Shown here: one piece after another, positions 10,089-30,571 of the stretch
Layout: each line of letters starts with the position of its first letter
Position numbering within the stretch: the first letter of the stretch is position 1
DNA from: Thermoanaerobaculia bacterium
GTDB taxonomy: Bacteria; Acidobacteriota; Thermoanaerobaculia; Multivoradales; Multivoraceae
Length of the DNA: 64,000 nucleotides
Assembly: GCA_963666565.1 (NCBI GenBank)
Contig: OY762911.1
Coordinates: 320,001-384,000, forward strand
Reading direction: 5' to 3'
Made by a program: the position numbers and the translations under genes
The notes under the pieces: model-generated
Told to the model about the DNA's origin: nothing
Databases searched by the model: none
Seen by the model: only the letters and a program-made list of their open reading frames with translations

Positions 10089-10214
10089 GCGGGTCGGAAG
10101 ACCCGCGCACCCAGCGGGCGGGTCGGAAGTCCCGCGCACCCAGCGGGCGGGTCGGAAAGACCCGCGCACCCAGGGCAGGTCAGGAAGACCCGCGCACCGA
10201 CCCGCGCACCCAAG
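10089..10214. repeat. Tandem cluster of about 5 REP-like palindromes (GCGGGTC-GGAA-GACCCGC-GCACCCAG)
   Basis: Copies at 10089, 10118 and 10147, a degenerate copy at 10175 and a partial one at 10199. Confidence 0.9.
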
Positions 10215-26468: not shown

Positions 26469-26544
26469 GGGGCAGTAGCTCAGTTGGGAGAGCACCACGT
26501 TCGCAACGTGGGGGTCGAGGGTTCAAGTCCCTTCTGCTCCACCA
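26469..26544 (+). tRNA. tRNA-Ala(CGC)
   Basis: 76-nt cloverleaf; acceptor GGGGCAG/CTGCTCC with G3:U70; anticodon loop TTCGCAA; GTTCAAG T-loop; encoded CCA. Confidence 0.97.
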
Positions 26545-26549
26545 CTTCC

Positions 26550-27353
26550 TCAGAAGTTCGGATTCTCGCCTTCCGGGTCTTCCTGGGCGCGGCCGACCAT
26601 CGGCACGAAGCGGACGACGTCGACCTGGCGGCGTTCGAGTCCGTCGGGGGTCTTGCGGATGACCACCAGGTCCTGAAGAGCGCCGCCGACCGGCGCCACG
26701 AGGATGCCGTTCACCTTGAGCTGTTCGATCAGCGGCGGCGGCACTTCAGCCGGCGCGGCGGCAACCAGGATGCCGTCGAAGGGCGCCTCTTCCGGCCAAC
26801 CGCGGTAGCCGTCGCCGACCCGGATCTCGACGTTGCCGTACCCCAGGTCGGCCAGCACGTCCCGCGCCCGCTCGGCCAGGCCGTCGATGATCTCGATGGA
26901 ATGGACGCGCCGGGCCAGGCGCGCCAGCACCGCCGTCGTGTAGCCGGAACCGGTGCCGATCTCGAGCAGCTTCTCGTCGCCGTCGAGCTCCAGGAGGTCG
27001 GCCATCAACGCCACCACGTACGGCTGGGAGACCGTCTGGCCGGCGCCGATCTGCACCGGTTCGTCGCCGTAGGCGTCGTCTCGCAGGGAATCCGGCACGA
27101 ACTCGTGGCGGGGCACCGTCCGGAGCGCGTTCAGCAGCCTCGGTTCCTCGATCCCCCGGCCCCGGATCTGCTCCTCGACCATGGCCCGGCGCTGCGCGGC
27201 GAAGAGGTCGCCCTGGCCCGGCGGCTGGGCGGACGCGCCGGCCGCCGCGAACACGCAGACGGCGGCGGCGAGCGCAAGCGCGGTCCGAACCGGCCGCCCG
27301 GGGCGGCCGCCGGTCCGCGGCGCCTTCGACTTCGACTGCCGGACCCGTCGCAC
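26550..27353 (-). CDS. pcm: Protein-L-isoaspartate O-methyltransferase with N-terminal signal-like extension
   Basis: VPRHEFVP, GQTVSQPYVVA, LEIGTGSGY, GDGYRGWPEEAPFD, VRFVPM; start uncertain. Confidence 0.93.
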   Translation of the reverse strand: MRRVRQSKSKAPRTGGRPGRPVRTALALAAAVCVFAAAGASAQPPGQGDLFAAQRRAMVEEQIRGRGIEEPRLLNALRTVPRHEFVPDSLRDDAYGDEPVQIGAGQTVSQPYVVALMADLLELDGDEKLLEIGTGSGYTTAVLARLARRVHSIEIIDGLAERARDVLADLGYGNVEIRVGDGYRGWPEEAPFDGILVAAAPAEVPPPLIEQLKVNGILVAPVGGALQDLVVIRKTPDGLERRQVDVVRFVPMVGRAQEDPEGENPNF

Positions 27354-27476
27354 GGCCGCAATGATAGGCAAACGCCGTACCGGGTCGCTGGGTAATGGGA
27401 TGGTCCGCCCCGCCCTCTACGGCCTCTTGTAGGGCCAGAATGGGTTTTTCCCAACCAACAAGGGAGGAGACGGACC

Positions 27477-28535
27477 ATGAAGAAGGTTACTCGAGTCGGT
27501 ATCGATCTGGGCAAGCGCCTGTTCCAGGTGTGCGCGATGGACTCGTCGGGCGCGGTGGTGTTTCAGCGTCAGGTGAAGGCGTCGGGGCTGATGGAGTTGA
27601 TGGTGCAGCTCGAGCCGTGCCTGGTGGGCATGGAGGCGAGCTGCGGCGCGCACTACTGGGTGGAGAAGCTGAGCGCTCTGGGTCACGACGCGCGGATGAT
27701 GAGTCCTCAGTTCGTGCGGCCTTACGTGAAGTCGAACAAGAGCGACTACCACGACGCGGAGGCGATCTGCGAGGCGGTGTCCCGTCCGACGATGCGTTTC
27801 GTGCCGTACAAGACGAAGGAGCAGCGTGCTCTTCAGCAGGTTCATCGGAGCCGGGAGGCGGCGCTTCGCCGTCGCACGCAGTTGGTGAACCAGTTGCGGG
27901 GATTCCTGGGCGAGTACGGGATCGTGCTGCGTCAGGGCCGGGCGGTGGTCATGCGGGCGGTGCCCGACATCGCGAGCGACGCGGAGCGCGAGCTGCCGGG
28001 TCAGTTTCGCGCGCTGCTGTGGATGCAGTACGAGGCTCTGATGCAGGTCCACAAGGAGGTCGAGGACCTGACCGCGATGCTGGTGCGGGAGTCGAAGGAG
28101 AACCCTCACTGCCAGCGTCTGATGTCGATTCCGGGCATCGGTCCGATCGTGGCGACGGCGATCGTGGCGGCGGTGGGCAACGGCTGGGCTTTCAGCAGCG
28201 GTCGTCAGATGTCGGCCTGGATGGGCTTGGTGCCGCGTCAGGACTCGACCGGGGGTCGCACGGTGCTGCGCGGGATCAGCAAGCGCGGCGACCGTTACCT
28301 GCGCTCGCTCCTGATCCACGGTGCGCGGGCGGTCCTGCGCACGGCGGCGAAGGGCGAGCGAACGCGGCTGAAGGGCTGGGCGCTCGACGTCAAGCGGCGC
28401 CGGGGGCCGAACGTCGCCACGGTGGCACTGGCCAACAAGCTGGGCCGCATCGCCTGGGCGGTGCTTCGCCGCGGCGAGCTGTACCGCGACGACCGCCTCG
28501 CCGGGTCTCGGCAGAAGGTCTCTCGGGCCGCGTAG
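27477..28535 (+). CDS. IS110 family DEDD recombinase/transposase
   Basis: GIDLGK, MEASCG, KSDYHDAEAI, SIPGIG, GLVPRQDSTGG, ISKRGDRYLR. Confidence 0.96.
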   Translation: MKKVTRVGIDLGKRLFQVCAMDSSGAVVFQRQVKASGLMELMVQLEPCLVGMEASCGAHYWVEKLSALGHDARMMSPQFVRPYVKSNKSDYHDAEAICEAVSRPTMRFVPYKTKEQRALQQVHRSREAALRRRTQLVNQLRGFLGEYGIVLRQGRAVVMRAVPDIASDAERELPGQFRALLWMQYEALMQVHKEVEDLTAMLVRESKENPHCQRLMSIPGIGPIVATAIVAAVGNGWAFSSGRQMSAWMGLVPRQDSTGGRTVLRGISKRGDRYLRSLLIHGARAVLRTAAKGERTRLKGWALDVKRRRGPNVATVALANKLGRIAWAVLRRGELYRDDRLAGSRQKVSRAA

Positions 28536-28584
28536 CAGGCGGCTCGATCCACATCGAATCAACCAAGGAGGATTGCCCCACCAA

Positions 28585-28776
28585 GTCGTTGCGAGGACAC
28601 AACGGAGCGATGGCGAAACAGGTCGGACCGGCGCGTCGAGAGCCTGAACCCGCGCAGGGCCATTCAACAGGCCGTCTGGGTGTACAGAAGAGACGACGCG
28701 CGCGTATTCCATCGGGGCCAGGGAGCTCGAAACCACGAGACGCCCAACAACAGGCCGAATACATGCAAGCAACGAC
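28585..28776 (+). ncRNA. Predicted bridge RNA / seekRNA of the IS1111 element
   Basis: Stems gtcgttgc/gcaacgac and gcgcgtcg/cgacgcgc enclose guide segments matching the target (28648-28656, 28676-28682) and donor junction (28706-28712, 28759-28764); ends approximate. Confidence 0.75.
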
Positions 28777-28833
28777 ACCTCTCTCGCCGGAACTCCGGAA
28801 AGTGCCCTTGCACAAGCGGGGCGGACCATACAT

Positions 28834-28910
28834 GCGCGGGTCGGGACGGCCTTCGGCCGGCGCGTTCCTGGCGGCCTTCGGCGGCAGCGGGTCAGAAGAC
28901 CCGCGCACCC
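28834..28910. repeat. Remainder of the REPIN targeted by the IS
   Basis: gcgcgggtc...gcgggtcagaagacccgcgcaccc; supplies the stop codon of the PP2C gene. Confidence 0.8.
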
Positions 28911-30571
28911 GGCGGTTCGGCCACCCGGCGGATCAGGACGACCGTCTGGTCGTCGCCCTGCGGCAGACCGGCGCCGAAGCGGCTGACCTCGGCGTCGATG
29001 GCGTCCACGATCTCGGACAGCGGCCGCTCGCGGCGTTGGCGGAGGAAGTCCTCCAGCCGTTCCTGCCCGTACTCTTCGCCCTCCGGGGACTCGCACTCCG
29101 TGATCCCGTCGCTGTACAGGCAGAGCAGGTCGCCCGGCCCCATCTCCAGCGGCGCCACCCGGTAGCTGGCCTCGGGCAGCAGGCCGAGCGGCAGGCCGCT
29201 CGCCGGCAGCGGCGTCACTTCGCCGTTCGCACGCGCCAGGAGCCCCGGGTTGTGGCCCGCGTTGAGGTAGCGGACGGCCCGGTTCGCCGGATCGATCTCG
29301 GTCAGGATCAGGGTGATGAAGCGGTTGCTGGCGCTCGTCTCGACGATGTGCTTGTTCAGGCGATCGAAGAGTTCCGGCGAGAGCTCGGCGCCGACGCCTT
29401 CGCCGCCGAGCCGGCAGTCGTCGACGAGCAGCCGCAGCGCCGAGTCCAGGGTGGAGACGAGGAGCGCGGCCGGCATGCCCTTGCCGGTCACGTCGGCGAC
29501 CACCAGGCCGCGGCGGTCGCCGGCGAAGCGGAGCGAGCCGTAGTAGTCGCCGCCGACGTGGCGGGAGGGGCGGCTCCAGCCCACCGTCTCGAAGCAGCCG
29601 GCGCCGGGCATCTCGGCCGGCAGGATCCGGCGCTGGATCTCGGCCGCGAGCTCGACCTCCCGTTCCAGGCGCTCCTTCTCCAGCGCGTCCCGATGGAGCT
29701 TCGCGTTGGTCAGCGCGATGGCGGCCTGATTGGCGAACAGCGAGAGCGCCCGGCGGTCCGAGGCCGCGAAGGGGCCCACGCCCGTCCGGCTCTCCTTGTC
29801 GGCGACCACCAGCAGGCCGACGCTGCCGCTGCCCCCGTCGCCCTCGACGGGCACCGCGAGCGAGTGCTCCGCCGCGCGGATGACGCCCGCCGCCACCGCT
29901 TCCACGCCAGCCTCGTCGAAGCCGGAAGCCGGGTTGCCCGGCTCCCTGACCGGCGGCGCCTCGATCGTCTCGCGGGCGCCGCCGCCGATCGTGCCGGCCA
30001 GCGCCAGGCGCCCGTCCTCGTCGGCCAGGTAGAAGGCGCCGCGCCGGGCGTCCAGGAGGGAGACCGCCCGCAGCAGGATCTCCTCGGTCAGTTCCTCCAG
30101 GTTCAGGGTCGAGGCGATCGCCAGTCCCACGTCGTAGACCGCCTGCAGAGTGACGACGTTGTAGTTGTCCTGGAACTTGCGGTCCTTCAGCTCGTCCGCC
30201 AGTTCGCGCAACCGGAGACCGATGGCCAGCACGCCGGCGAGAGCGCGCTCCTCGGCCGCGTCGCCGGCGGCGCCGGCGGCTTCGTCGCCGCCGCCCGCGC
30301 AGTAGAGGACGAGGTCGTGCTCCAGGCGCCGCTCGCTCTTGCCGAGCACGCCCCAGGAGGCCACCGGGCCGCCGTCCCGCCGGTAGATCTGGGCGCCCTC
30401 CAGGCCGCGGGCCCGGCACCAGTGACCCACGAGCAGGGTCTGGGCCGCGCCCGTCTCCCAGTCCGCGACGTCGGCCGCCGCCGCGAGCCGCCAAAGCTCG
30501 GCGCCGATCCCGGCGCCGGTCGCCGCCGCCGACCCCGGCGCCCGCGCGGAACCGGCGGCCGGCGAGGTCAC
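28892..30571 (-). CDS. GAF + PP2C/SpoIIE (RsbU-like) phosphatase
   Basis: AAEIQRRILP, VGGDYY, ADVTGKG, NAGHNP, YSDGITE, DDQT. Confidence 0.92.
   Translation of the reverse strand: MTSPAAGSARAPGSAAATGAGIGAELWRLAAAADVADWETGAAQTLLVGHWCRARGLEGAQIYRRDGGPVASWGVLGKSERRLEHDLVLYCAGGGDEAAGAAGDAAEERALAGVLAIGLRLRELADELKDRKFQDNYNVVTLQAVYDVGLAIASTLNLEELTEEILLRAVSLLDARRGAFYLADEDGRLALAGTIGGGARETIEAPPVREPGNPASGFDEAGVEAVAAGVIRAAEHSLAVPVEGDGGSGSVGLLVVADKESRTGVGPFAASDRRALSLFANQAAIALTNAKLHRDALEKERLEREVELAAEIQRRILPAEMPGAGCFETVGWSRPSRHVGGDYYGSLRFAGDRRGLVVADVTGKGMPAALLVSTLDSALRLLVDDCRLGGEGVGAELSPELFDRLNKHIVETSASNRFITLILTEIDPANRAVRYLNAGHNPGLLARANGEVTPLPASGLPLGLLPEASYRVAPLEMGPGDLLCLYSDGITECESPEGEEYGQERLEDFLRQRRERPLSEIVDAIDAEVSRFGAGLPQGDDQTVVLIRRVAEPPGARVF

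What the first reader, a model, noticed from the sequence alone, without database searches (positions are those of the whole stretch)
27387..28842. IS1111 element whose bridge/seek RNA guides can be read directly and match the host REP repeat
Seen: removing 27394-28833 restores gctgggt|gcgcgggtc, the conserved arm of a REP found many times in this window. In the 3' non-coding region, an 8-bp stem (28631-28638/28694-28701) encloses ACCCGCGCA (28648-28656, reverse complement of the right target half tgcgcgggt) and CTGGGTG (28676-28682, identical to the left target half), separated by a small GGCC hairpin. A second region carries ATTCCAT (28706-28712, complementary with one G:U pair to the IS left end atgggat) and ATACAT (28759-28764, identical to the IS right end). 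Known: IS110/IS1111 recombinases use a non-coding RNA with target- and donor-binding loops, and some target REPs. Inference: this is a complete, apparently intact RNA-guided recombinase with a decodable specificity for this genome's REP family, and a candidate programmable tool. The only base shared by both junctions is a single T.
Basis: partly seen in the sequence, partly recalled or inferred. Interest (0 to 1): 0.85.

Follow-up and report, generated by a model that had tools for sequence, protein, structure and literature searches.

The report
REP-targeting IS1111 element with readable guide RNA
This is an intact, recently active insertion sequence of the known RNA-guided IS1111 group whose guide RNA sequence matches the host repeat it inserts into, so it is a well-supported but ordinary new member of a known kind.

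Summary
Every coordinate and motif in the finding is correct. Window 27394-28833 is a 1,440-bp IS1111-group (IS110 family) element. It has 5 identical copies in the 4.79-Mb genome. All 5 sit at (C/A)TGGGT|GCGCGGGTC, the arm of a REP whose 14-mer occurs 526 times.

The 3' non-coding region folds into two loops, and the helices are supported by compensatory changes in relatives: 91% of cells paired against 31-40% in slid controls.

The first-loop guides ACCCGCGCA and CTGGGTG covary with targets:
- A sister genome with 0 GCGCGGGT sites and 413 GCGCCGRC sites carries the guide GTCGGCGCA.
- Five elements at 44-51% protein identity carry other guides that match their own flanks.

The second-loop "donor" guides pair in a fixed register with the IS ends across 16 element types. 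This support is weaker. In ISEc11, published work shows that a short RNA carrying the two target matches is enough for transposition.

No RNA data were available, so expression is inferred. REP-targeting IS1111 elements with a seekRNA/bridge RNA are already described (ISPa11). This is a new member of a known kind, and interest is moderate to low.

The parts
27388..27393 (+). Left target half CTGGGT. The last T is the single base shared with the IS right end.
   Evidence: Same 6 bases (one copy has ATGGGT) flank all 5 genomic copies. They are identical to the 3' target guide.
27394..28833 (+). IS1111-group insertion sequence, 1,440 bp (alternatively 27393-28832)
   Evidence: 5 of 5 copies are 100% identical over 1-1440. 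Contig nodes end at 27388 and 28842.
27400..27413 (+). Left subterminal inverted repeat ATGGTCCGCCCCGC
   Evidence: Read. It is the reverse complement of 28816-28829. Homologous sTIRs occur in relatives.
27462..27469 (+). Shine-Dalgarno-like GGGAGGAG, 7 nt before the ATG
   Evidence: Sequence read; function is inferred.
27477..28535 (+). tnp gene: 352-aa DEDD recombinase. D10, E53, D90, D93; G250-L-x-P253-x4-T258-G259 motif with S257 invariant.
28536..28833 (+). 3' non-coding region that encodes the predicted seekRNA/bridge RNA
28631..28701 (+). Target-binding loop unit: outer stem 28631-28638/28694-28701, short helix CUG 28644-28646/CAG 28685-28687, inner hairpin 28658-28661/28670-28673
   Evidence: In the outer helix 6 of 9 pairs change on both sides; in the inner hairpin 2 of 4 do. 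The MFE fold recovers these helices.
28648..28656 (+). 5' target guide ACCCGCGCA, complementary to top strand T+GCGCGGGT (28833-28841)
   Evidence: 9/9 match at 18 of 18 insertions carrying this guide. The guide covaries with the target in 8 guide types.
28676..28682 (+). 3' target guide CTGGGTG, identical to top strand CTGGG+T+G of the uninterrupted target, so it would pair with the bottom strand
   Evidence: 7/7 match at 17 of 18 insertions and 6/7 at one. Group A elements carry other 7-mers that match their own left flanks.
28706..28714 (+). 5' strand of the second loop, ATTCCATCG: predicted donor guide pairing with T+AATGGGAT (27393-27401), 6 Watson-Crick plus 2 G:U of 9
   Evidence: Fixed-register comparison of 22 elements. 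Permutation over 16 types: 103/144 against 93.0, sd 3.2.
28716..28756 (+). Helices inside the second loop: GGCC 28716-28719/28753-28756 and the hairpin 28721-28729/28736-28745
   Evidence: The GGCC helix is invariant. The inner helix has 3 pairs that change on both sides.
28759..28766 (+). 3' strand of the second loop, ATACATGC: identical to right end ATACAT (28828-28833) plus the first two flank bases GC (28834-28835)
   Evidence: 8 of 9 positions. Permutation: 119/144 against 86.6, sd 6.2.
28808..28813 (+). -35-like TTGCAC of the predicted junction promoter. After a 17-nt spacer, CAT (28831-28833) joins AAT (27394-27396) in a circle to give a -10-like CATAAT.
   Evidence: The same geometry is present in 14 of 14 elements examined. 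No sigma-70-like site was found in the linear element.
28816..28829 (+). Right subterminal inverted repeat GCGGGGCGGACCAT
28834..28842 (+). Right target half GCGCGGGTC. At this copy the REP hairpin partner is absent.
   Evidence: the other 4 copies continue TTCTGACCCGC, while this one continues GGGACGG.

Best explanation
Window 27394-28833 is an intact, recently active insertion sequence of the IS1111 group of the IS110 family.

It encodes a 352-aa DEDD (RuvC-like) recombinase. Downstream of the gene it encodes a non-coding seekRNA/bridge RNA.

In the RNA's first internal loop, ACCCGCGCA would pair with the top strand of T+GCGCGGGT. CTGGGTG would pair with the bottom strand of CTGGG+T+G. The element is therefore placed, in one orientation and without target duplication, at CTGGGT|GCGCGGGT, the arm of the host's most abundant REP.

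A second loop carries ATTCCATCG and ATACATGC. These probably read the left and right ends of the element.

By analogy with ISEc11 and IS621, the element is expected to excise as a circle. Joining the ends would create a promoter (TTGCAC, 17 nt, CAT|AAT) that drives the recombinase gene and, by read-through, the RNA.

Shown here: boundaries, target specificity, protein family and fold, conserved RNA helices, and guide-target covariation.
Inferred: transcription and processing of the RNA, the circle, the promoter, and the role of the second loop.
For: Copies and target sites:
- 5 of 5 genomic copies are identical and sit at the same site.
- The genome holds 526 copies of the target 14-mer against 52 of the variant CTGGGTGCGCCGRC. 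All 5 insertions are in the abundant variant.
- This copy's site lacks the REP hairpin partner, so about 15 bases of sequence suffice rather than the hairpin.

Protein:
- Pfam PF01548 and PF02371; NF033542 at 341 bits.
- D10, E53, D93, S257 and G259 are invariant in 19 relatives down to 37% identity.
- The model is closest to IS621 and ISCro4.

RNA structure on 14 sequences:
- 91.3% of cells are paired against 31-40% when the partners are slid.
- 12 pairs change on both sides against 0-9 in the slid controls.

Target-guide covariation in a fixed register, 45 insertions and 8 guide types:
- Window-type guide: 9/9 at 18 of 18 insertions.
- Guide GTCGGCGCA: 21 insertions, 7 at 9/9 and 14 at 8/9, where the one mismatch is a U:G wobble.
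- Cognate mean 7.88/9 and 6.50/7; non-cognate mean 4.09 and 3.86.
- 0 of 10,000 shuffles reach the observed sum.

Other points:
- Genome G186, whose element carries GTCGGCGCA, has 0 GCGCGGGT sites and 413 GCGCCGRC sites.
- The guide order, top-strand match 5' of bottom-strand match, is the one reported for IS1111 seekRNAs (PMC11187229).
- The junction-promoter geometry is conserved in 14 of 14 elements.
Against: - No RNA data: no listed sequencing run is on record as RNA. The DNA contigs show neither a circle junction nor an empty site.
- Single-sequence folds are only modestly better than shuffles (z -1.5 to -2.5). The MFE pairs the two guides of each loop with each other.
- Relatives are not independent, so the permutation counts overstate significance.
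- Several single-copy relatives match their flanks imperfectly: L064 6/9 and 5/7; L061 and L065 7/9; L066 5/7.
- One copy in G186 (L059) has a cognate left flank but a 4/9 right flank, which is the interior of another transposase gene.
- Second loop: the cognate excess for the 5' strand is small (103 against 93 of 144). The L013-type variant ACTCCATCG pairs worse, with 5 Watson-Crick pairs.
- In ISEc11 the short 82-nt seekRNA, in which the authors located the two target matches, supported transposition (PMC11187229).
Confidence: 0.88

Rival explanations
1. The first loop is a true target guide. The second region (28702-28770) is not a donor-binding loop. Its conserved motifs would be protein-binding or structural elements, and the element's ends would be recognised by the recombinase through the subterminal inverted repeats and, for excision, through the target-derived flanks.
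For: In ISEc11 the short 82-nt seekRNA, in which the authors located the two target matches, moved a mini-IS at 42% against 15% for the long 154-nt RNA. Altered flanks abolished circle formation (PMC11187229, Results).

The left ends of the elements compared here are all similar (TNATGNNAT). Non-cognate pairing is therefore already high: shuffled mean 93 of 144 against 103 observed.

The L013-type relatives carry ACTCCATCG against an unchanged left end.
Against: In a fixed register, compensatory changes occur between the guide and the left end:
- C:G to U:A where ATGGG becomes ATGAG in group A.
- A:T to C:G at the first position in L073.
- C:G to U:A in L077.

The 3' strand tracks quite different right ends (TACAT, GATAC, TATAG, TACAC): 119 of 144 identities against 86.6 expected.

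Confidence: 0.3
2. Target choice is made by the protein, or by recognition of the REP hairpin structure. The REP-like 9-mer and 7-mer in the NCR would be a captured REP fragment or a chance match.
For: The reverse complement of the REP contains ACCCGCGCA, so a captured piece could in principle give the 9-mer.
Against: - The window's own insertion site lacks the hairpin partner.
- Relatives with non-REP targets carry different sequences at the same structural positions, and these match their own flanks: L063 9/9 and 7/7; L066 9/9.
- Three guide substitutions track three target substitutions between sister genomes.
Confidence: 0.03
3. The element is a silent relic: intact in sequence but no longer mobile, or its RNA is not produced.
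For: No promoter-like site was found inside the linear element. Only 5 of more than 500 available sites are occupied. No circle or empty-site joint appears in contigs of 4 DNA runs.
Against: Five copies at 100% identity over 1,440 bp, an open 352-aa frame and conserved catalytic residues argue for recent activity. A sister genome holds at least 21 copies. A lack of internal promoters is expected in this family, where a junction promoter forms on excision (PMC11187229; PMC12288879, passages read).
Confidence: 0.06

Closest known systems
ISPa11 (IS1111 group, Pseudomonas aeruginosa)
   Same: IS1111-type element that inserts at a fixed position in the host REP. Its 3' NCR gives a seekRNA (96-nt peak) that co-purifies with the transposase, and the top-strand match lies 5' of the bottom-strand match (PMC11187229). 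Durrant et al. list it among their six manually inspected bridge RNAs (PMC11208160).
   Different: Different host phylum: the relatives found here are MAG records titled Thermoanaerobaculia or Candidatus Multivorans. The REP sequence and the guides also differ. I could not fetch the ISPa11 sequence, so no identity figure is given. The best plasmid-borne IS110-family proteins are below 50% identical. No experiment exists for the present element.
ISEc11 / ISXne4 (IS1111 group, Enterobacteria)
   Same: Same layout: subterminal inverted repeats, a 7-nt left extension, no target duplication, a 3' NCR seekRNA, a Pjunc promoter at the circle junction, and natural retargeting between close relatives through changes in the guide bases (PMC11187229).
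   Different: ISEc11 targets a linear, non-REP sequence. Here retargeting follows two variants of one REP family in sister genomes. The short ISEc11 RNA is sufficient for transposition, which leaves the role of the second loop open.
IS621 (IS110 group, E. coli) bridge recombinase
   Same: REP-targeting DEDD recombinase with a two-loop bridge RNA. Each loop reads both strands around a short core. It is the closest solved structure to the model, TM 0.65/0.71. Its handshake guides read the non-cognate DNA (PMC11208158; PMC13626964).
   Different: In IS621 the RNA lies 5' of the gene, the guide order is reversed, only very short sTIRs are present and the core is CT. Here the RNA is 3', the sTIRs are 14 bp and the shared core is a single T. 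Sequence similarity is detectable only in the C-terminal domain (E 2e-9).
ISPpu9 / ISPpu10 (IS110 group, Pseudomonas putida)
   Same: IS110-family elements inserted at a fixed dinucleotide within REPs. They form circles, and ISPpu10 relies on a Pjunc promoter (PMC12288879, passages read).
   Different: They belong to the IS110 group, have no sTIRs and carry the bridge RNA upstream. ISPpu9 has its own promoter and modular ends.

Membership tests
IS110 family (DEDD, RNA-guided recombinases) | N-terminal RuvC-like DEDD domain plus the C-terminal PF02371 domain with the G-x-x-P-x4-(S/T)-G motif | tested here: met
   - PF01548 E 4e-20 and PF02371 E 8e-24.
- NF033542 at 341 bits against a cut-off of 140.
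- D10, E53, D93, S257 and G259 invariant, and D90 at 90% or more, in 19 sequences.
- Motif GLVPRQDSTG at residues 250-259.
- The model's top matches are IS621 and ISCro4.
IS1111 group | Subterminal inverted repeats of 7-17 bp with short terminal extensions | tested here: met
   14-bp sTIR at 27400-27413 / 28816-28829. The extensions are 6 and 4 nt, or 7 and 3 if the shared T is given to the left end. The definition comes from PMC11208160 and PMC11187229.
IS1111 group | The longer non-coding region lies downstream of tnp | tested here: met
   83 nt upstream (27394-27476) against 298 nt downstream (28536-28833).
IS1111 group | Sequence-specific, orientation-specific insertion without target-site duplication | tested here: met
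   5 of 5 own copies and 13 of 13 same-guide copies in relatives lie at CTGGGT|GCGCGGGT, with one own copy at ATGGGT. The uninterrupted 14-mer is present 526 times. Only one T is shared by the two junctions.
seekRNA / bridge RNA systems | An NCR loop with one segment complementary to the top strand and one to the bottom strand of the target, overlapping at the insertion point, top-strand match 5' in IS1111 | tested here: met
   Guides lie at 28648-28656 and 28676-28682 and overlap on T|G. The flanking helices covary. The guides covary with targets: 8 types, 0 of 10,000 shuffles.
seekRNA / bridge RNA systems | A second loop that reads the donor ends | tested here: inconclusive
   Fixed-register pairing is 5-8 Watson-Crick pairs of 9 in 22 of 22 elements. 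The cognate excess is 103 against 93.0 for the 5' strand and 119 against 86.6 for the 3' strand. The elements are related to each other, and the published ISEc11 data show the short RNA is enough.
seekRNA / bridge RNA systems | The RNA is transcribed, processed and bound by the recombinase, and is required for transposition | not testable with these tools
   No RNA run is listed for this sequence. No Rfam family matches the NCR.
IS110/IS1111 life cycle | A circular intermediate with a promoter assembled at the RE-LE junction | tested here: inconclusive
   The sequence allows TTGCAC, 17 nt, CATAAT, and this is conserved in 14 of 14 elements. No circle junction was seen, but only assembled contigs were available.

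The most novel reading that the evidence does not exclude
The second loop is a real donor-binding loop. Its 3' strand reads the right end, the core T and then the first one or two bases of the right TARGET flank (ATACAT+GC here, where the circle junction would give AA). It would then be an IS1111 counterpart of the IS621 handshake guides, tying the donor loop to the target and biasing insertion against excision.

Together with the natural three-base retargeting between REP variants of sister genomes (526/52 against 0/413 sites), this would give a ready-made orthogonal pair of high-GC IS1111 bridge systems.
Probability: 0.3. Interest if true: 0.5.

Novelty: new member of a known kind. Interest (0 to 1): 0.3.

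Why it matters
The finding shows that the target specificity of an uncharacterised IS1111 element can be read directly from sequence and checked by comparative genomics alone.

It adds an Acidobacteriota-type, high-GC lineage to the catalogue of RNA-guided recombinases.

It also provides a natural retargeting pair: ACCCGCGCA with GCGCGGGT, and GTCGGCGCA with GCGCCGAC. That pair is a simple positive control for guide-swap experiments.

For the host genome, it explains five REP-associated insertions. It also marks REPs as landing pads that confine the element to intergenic DNA.

It does not reveal a new mechanism.

Tried and rejected
1. Rfam 15 scan of 27000-29200 at E up to 10. No family matched the NCR; there were only weak chance hits elsewhere.

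2. Expression. No RNA holder was listed for this sequence.

3. Reads. Only Logan contigs of 4 DNA runs from one study could be laid. No joint shows an empty site or a circle.

4. Unrestricted longest-common-substring test of flanks against whole NCRs. It separated cognate from non-cognate only for the 5' target guide (mean 7.93 against 5.89). The other three guides were at background (5.93 vs 5.96, 6.40 vs 6.22, 6.40 vs 5.96). I replaced it with fixed-register tests.

5. Orthologous empty site. The left flank was found in 20 of 20 same-genus genomes, but the alignment stops at window position 27277. In L087 a 464-aa PmbA/TldD-like gene fills the gap, so no empty site could be read.

6. The single-sequence MFE pairs ACCCG with CUGGGU and GUAUUC with GAAUAC. 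I rejected these helices as conserved structure because they are not kept in the group A sequences.

7. phmmer against PDB sequences aligned only the C-terminal domain, so I used a fold search instead.

8. For the more distant TGGACTCC-type elements (36-42% identity) I could not fix the exact ends. Their target guides are described only by example. They enter only the second-loop test, which is anchored on the inverted repeats.

10. Supplementary files of the papers were not opened. The ISPa11 and ISEc11 long-seekRNA folds and the Durrant et al. IS1111 covariance models sit there and may already show a donor loop of this shape.

11. "Not in print" rests on two searches. One search (Thermoanaerobaculia + IS110) returned 0 papers. 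One search (handshake guide + IS1111) returned 3 papers. In one of them (PMC13626964) the IS1111 mentions were seen only in the reference list; I did not check where IS1111 occurs in the other two.
Full report
OBSERVATION

Every coordinate in the finding is exact. The features are:
- the 8-bp stem 28631-28638/28694-28701
- ACCCGCGCA at 28648-28656
- the GGCC hairpin at 28658-28661/28670-28673
- CTGGGTG at 28676-28682
- ATTCCAT at 28706-28712
- ATACAT at 28759-28764

The 1,440 bases 27394-28833 occur five times in the 4,786,144-bp single-contig genome, all at 100% identity. The flanks of the five copies agree only in (C/A)TGGGT on the left and GCGCGGGTC on the right. Contigs of four DNA runs break at 27388 and 28842. 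They give the element about 5-8 times the depth of its unique flanks.

Deleting the element restores CTGGGT|GCGCGGGT. This 14-mer occurs 526 times in the genome. In the window it occurs 11 times with up to one mismatch, against 0.09 expected. It is the 5' arm of a REP hairpin, GCGGGTC-N4-GACCCGC.

A single T is shared by the two junctions, so 27393-28832 is an equally valid description. That version gives the 7-nt left extension that Siddiquee et al. call required for IS1111 members (PMC11187229, Results) and leaves 3 nt (ACA) on the right.

THE ELEMENT

The ORF 27477-28535 encodes a 352-aa protein.
- It matches PF01548 (DEDD_Tnp_IS110) and PF02371.
- It matches NCBIfam NF033542, 'IS110 family RNA-guided transposase', at 341 bits against a cut-off of 140.
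- In an alignment of 19 relatives down to 37% identity, D10, E53, D93, S257 and G259 are invariant, and D90 is nearly so.
- The motif GLVPRQDSTG (residues 250-259) fits the GL-P----S(t)G motif described for IS1111 transposases.
- An AlphaFold model built on that alignment has pLDDT 87.8 and pTM 0.80.
- Its best structural matches are the IS621 and ISCro4 recombinases in their bridge-RNA synaptic complexes: E 3.5e-14, TM 0.65/0.71.

The element has 14-bp subterminal inverted repeats at 27400-27413 and 28816-28829. The leader is 83 nt and the 3' non-coding region is 298 nt. This is the IS1111 layout.

No sigma-70-like promoter was found in the linear element. Joining the ends would place TTGCAC (28808-28813) 17 nt from CAT|AAT. 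The same geometry is present in 14 of 14 related elements examined. It is the junction-promoter arrangement described for ISEc11 and others.

RELATIVES

A scan of one genome per species found 50 loci.
- 35 complete copies at about 76-82% protein identity lie in MAG records titled Thermoanaerobaculia or Candidatus Multivorans.
- A phylum-wide search found matches in 35 of 401 genomes at E <= 1e-30, a count that includes the window's own genome G000.
- Among these are a group at 44-51% identity with nearly the same ends (here called group A: L061, L063-L066), and a more distant group with TGGACTCC-type repeats.

RNA STRUCTURE

I aligned 14 NCRs, 9 distinct close relatives plus 5 group A, and tested a hand-drawn structure on them. 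The structure has an outer stem, a short helix and an inner hairpin around the first loop, and three helices around the second loop.
- It pairs 91.3% of cells, against 31-40% when the partners are slid by 1-3 columns.
- 12 pairs change on both sides, against 0-9 in the slid controls.
- 6 of the 9 outer-stem pairs and 2 of the 4 hairpin pairs show double changes.

Single-sequence folds recover the same helices with modest z-scores of -2.0 to -2.5. They also pair the guides with each other. That extra pairing is not conserved in group A, so I regard the loops as open.

TARGET GUIDES

I used a fixed register. The 5' guide is the 9 nt ending one base before the inner hairpin. The 3' guide is the 7 nt starting two bases after it. 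I scored 45 insertions carrying 8 guide pairs.
- The window-type pair matches its flanks 9/9 at 18 of 18 insertions, and 7/7 at 17 of 18. One own copy has ATGGGT.
- A sister genome's element carries GTCGGCGCA. Its 21 insertions lie at T|GCGCCGAC (7 copies, 9/9) or T|GCGCCGGC (14 copies, 8/9, the difference being a U:G wobble).
- L011 is 8/9 and 7/7.
- Group A elements carry unrelated guides that match their own flanks:

| Element | 5' guide | 3' guide |
|---|---|---|
| L063 | 9/9 | 7/7 |
| L066 | 9/9 | 5/7 |
| L061 | 7/9 | 7/7 |
| L065 | 7/9 | 7/7 |
| L064 | 6/9 | 5/7 |

Cognate means are 7.88/9 and 6.50/7, against 4.09 and 3.86 for non-cognate pairs. None of 10,000 shuffles reaches the observed sum. 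The eight types are related to each other, so this number overstates independence.

Directly on G handles:
- The genome whose element has GTCGGCGCA holds 0 copies of CTGGGTGCGCGGGT and 413 of CTGGGTGCGCCGRC.
- The window's genome holds 526 and 52.
- A further variant guide, GCCCGCGCA, sits at GCGCGGAC (8/9) in G349.

The order of the guides, top-strand match first, and their 2-base overlap on the target are what Siddiquee et al. report for IS1111 seekRNAs. The window's own site lacks the second arm of the REP hairpin. About 15 bases of sequence are therefore enough, and the hairpin structure is not needed.

SECOND LOOP

I anchored on the conserved GGCC helix. The 9 nt ending one base before it (ATTCCATCG, 28706-28714) pair with T+AATGGGAT at the left end, with 6 Watson-Crick and 2 G:U pairs. 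The same register gives 5-8 Watson-Crick pairs in all 22 elements examined. Compensatory changes occur:
- ATGGG becomes ATGAG together with CC becoming UC in group A.
- The first base changes from T to G together with A to C in L073.
- G changes to A together with C to U in L077.

The 3' strand (AATACATGCA from 28758) is identical to the right end plus flank at 8 of 9 scored positions. It tracks different right ends (TACAT, GATAC, TATAG, TACAC).

Over 16 distinct types the cognate sums are:
- 5' strand: 103 of 144 against 93.0 +/- 3.2 shuffled (14 of 10,000 shuffles reach it).
- 3' strand: 119 of 144 against 86.6 +/- 6.2 shuffled (0 of 10,000).

Against it:
- The left ends are all alike, so the excess is small.
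- The L013-type variant pairs worse.
- In ISEc11 the short 82-nt seekRNA, in which the authors located the two target matches, sufficed for transposition.

I put the donor-guide reading at about 0.6-0.7.

AN EXTRA OBSERVATION

After the shared T, the 3' strand of the second loop continues GC. Those are the first two bases of the right target flank, not AA, which the circle junction would give. In the five group A elements the corresponding first base is T, which equals their flank in 5 of 5 and their left end in 0 of 5. The second base agrees with the flank in 2 of 5.

This resembles the handshake guides of IS621, which pair with the non-cognate DNA after strand exchange and set the insertion/excision bias (PMC11208158; PMC13626964). 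I did not see this described for the IS1111 group in the passages I read (search). Supplements were closed.

EXCEPTIONS AND LIMITS

- One copy in G186 (L059) has the cognate left flank. Its right flank is the interior of another related transposase gene (84% identical to window 27929-28048). It matches the guide at only 4/9, which points to a nested or rearranged site.
- Several loci show the element split by about 2 kb of other DNA.
- No RNA run was available.
- The orthologous locus in relatives carries an extra gene, so no true empty site could be read.

VERDICT

REP-targeting IS110/IS1111 elements guided by a seekRNA/bridge RNA are already established: ISPa11, IS621 and ISPpu9/10. Natural retargeting is also known from ISEc11/ISXne4. 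This is therefore a new member of a known kind, from a lineage not mentioned with IS110 in the library searched (0 papers).

Its practical value is a clean natural guide-swap pair and a high-GC orthologue. It is not a new mechanism.

Noticed in passing
window 27278-27393 and 28834-28928; L087 2028-3422: In same-genus genomes a 464-aa PmbA/TldD-family gene (PF19289) lies between the PCMT methyltransferase gene and the GAF-SpoIIE phosphatase gene. In the window's genome that gene was not found with this query. The IS, 6 bases of REP on its left and about 95 bases of REP-like DNA on its right occupy the place. Homology to the relative breaks exactly at CTGGGT. This may be an IS- or REP-associated replacement or deletion.
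   Followed up: partly
window 28765-28766 (GC after ATACAT): The 3' strand of the second loop continues into the right target flank rather than into the left end of the element. This is handshake-guide-like. In group A the first base beyond the T equals the flank in 5 of 5 elements.
   Followed up: partly
L059 1412-2854 and right flank 2855-2974: A copy of the sister element has a cognate left flank. Its right flank is the interior of another related transposase gene, 84% identical to window 27929-28048. The guide match is only 4/9, so the site is nested or rearranged.
   Followed up: partly
L036, L044, L047: Three loci show the element in two pieces separated by about 2.1 kb, as if another element had inserted into it.
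   Followed up: no
L057 (G349): A third natural guide variant, GCCCGCGCA, lies at a GCGCGGAC site (8/9). In that genome both REP variants that were counted are rare, 12 and 46 copies.
   Followed up: no
window 10089-10198; G000 C1 743538-743767: REPs occur as head-to-tail arrays. The window has a period-29 array of 3.8 copies. The genome has runs spaced 36 nt apart just beside another IS copy.
   Followed up: no
window 28887-28912: An inverted REP copy (CCGGGTGCGCGGGT on the minus strand) lies 54 bp right of the IS. Contig depth there rises to thousands, as expected for a high-copy repeat.
   Followed up: no
window 26469-26544: tRNA-Ala (anticodon CGC) lies on the + strand, next to the 3' end of the PCMT gene.
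   Followed up: no
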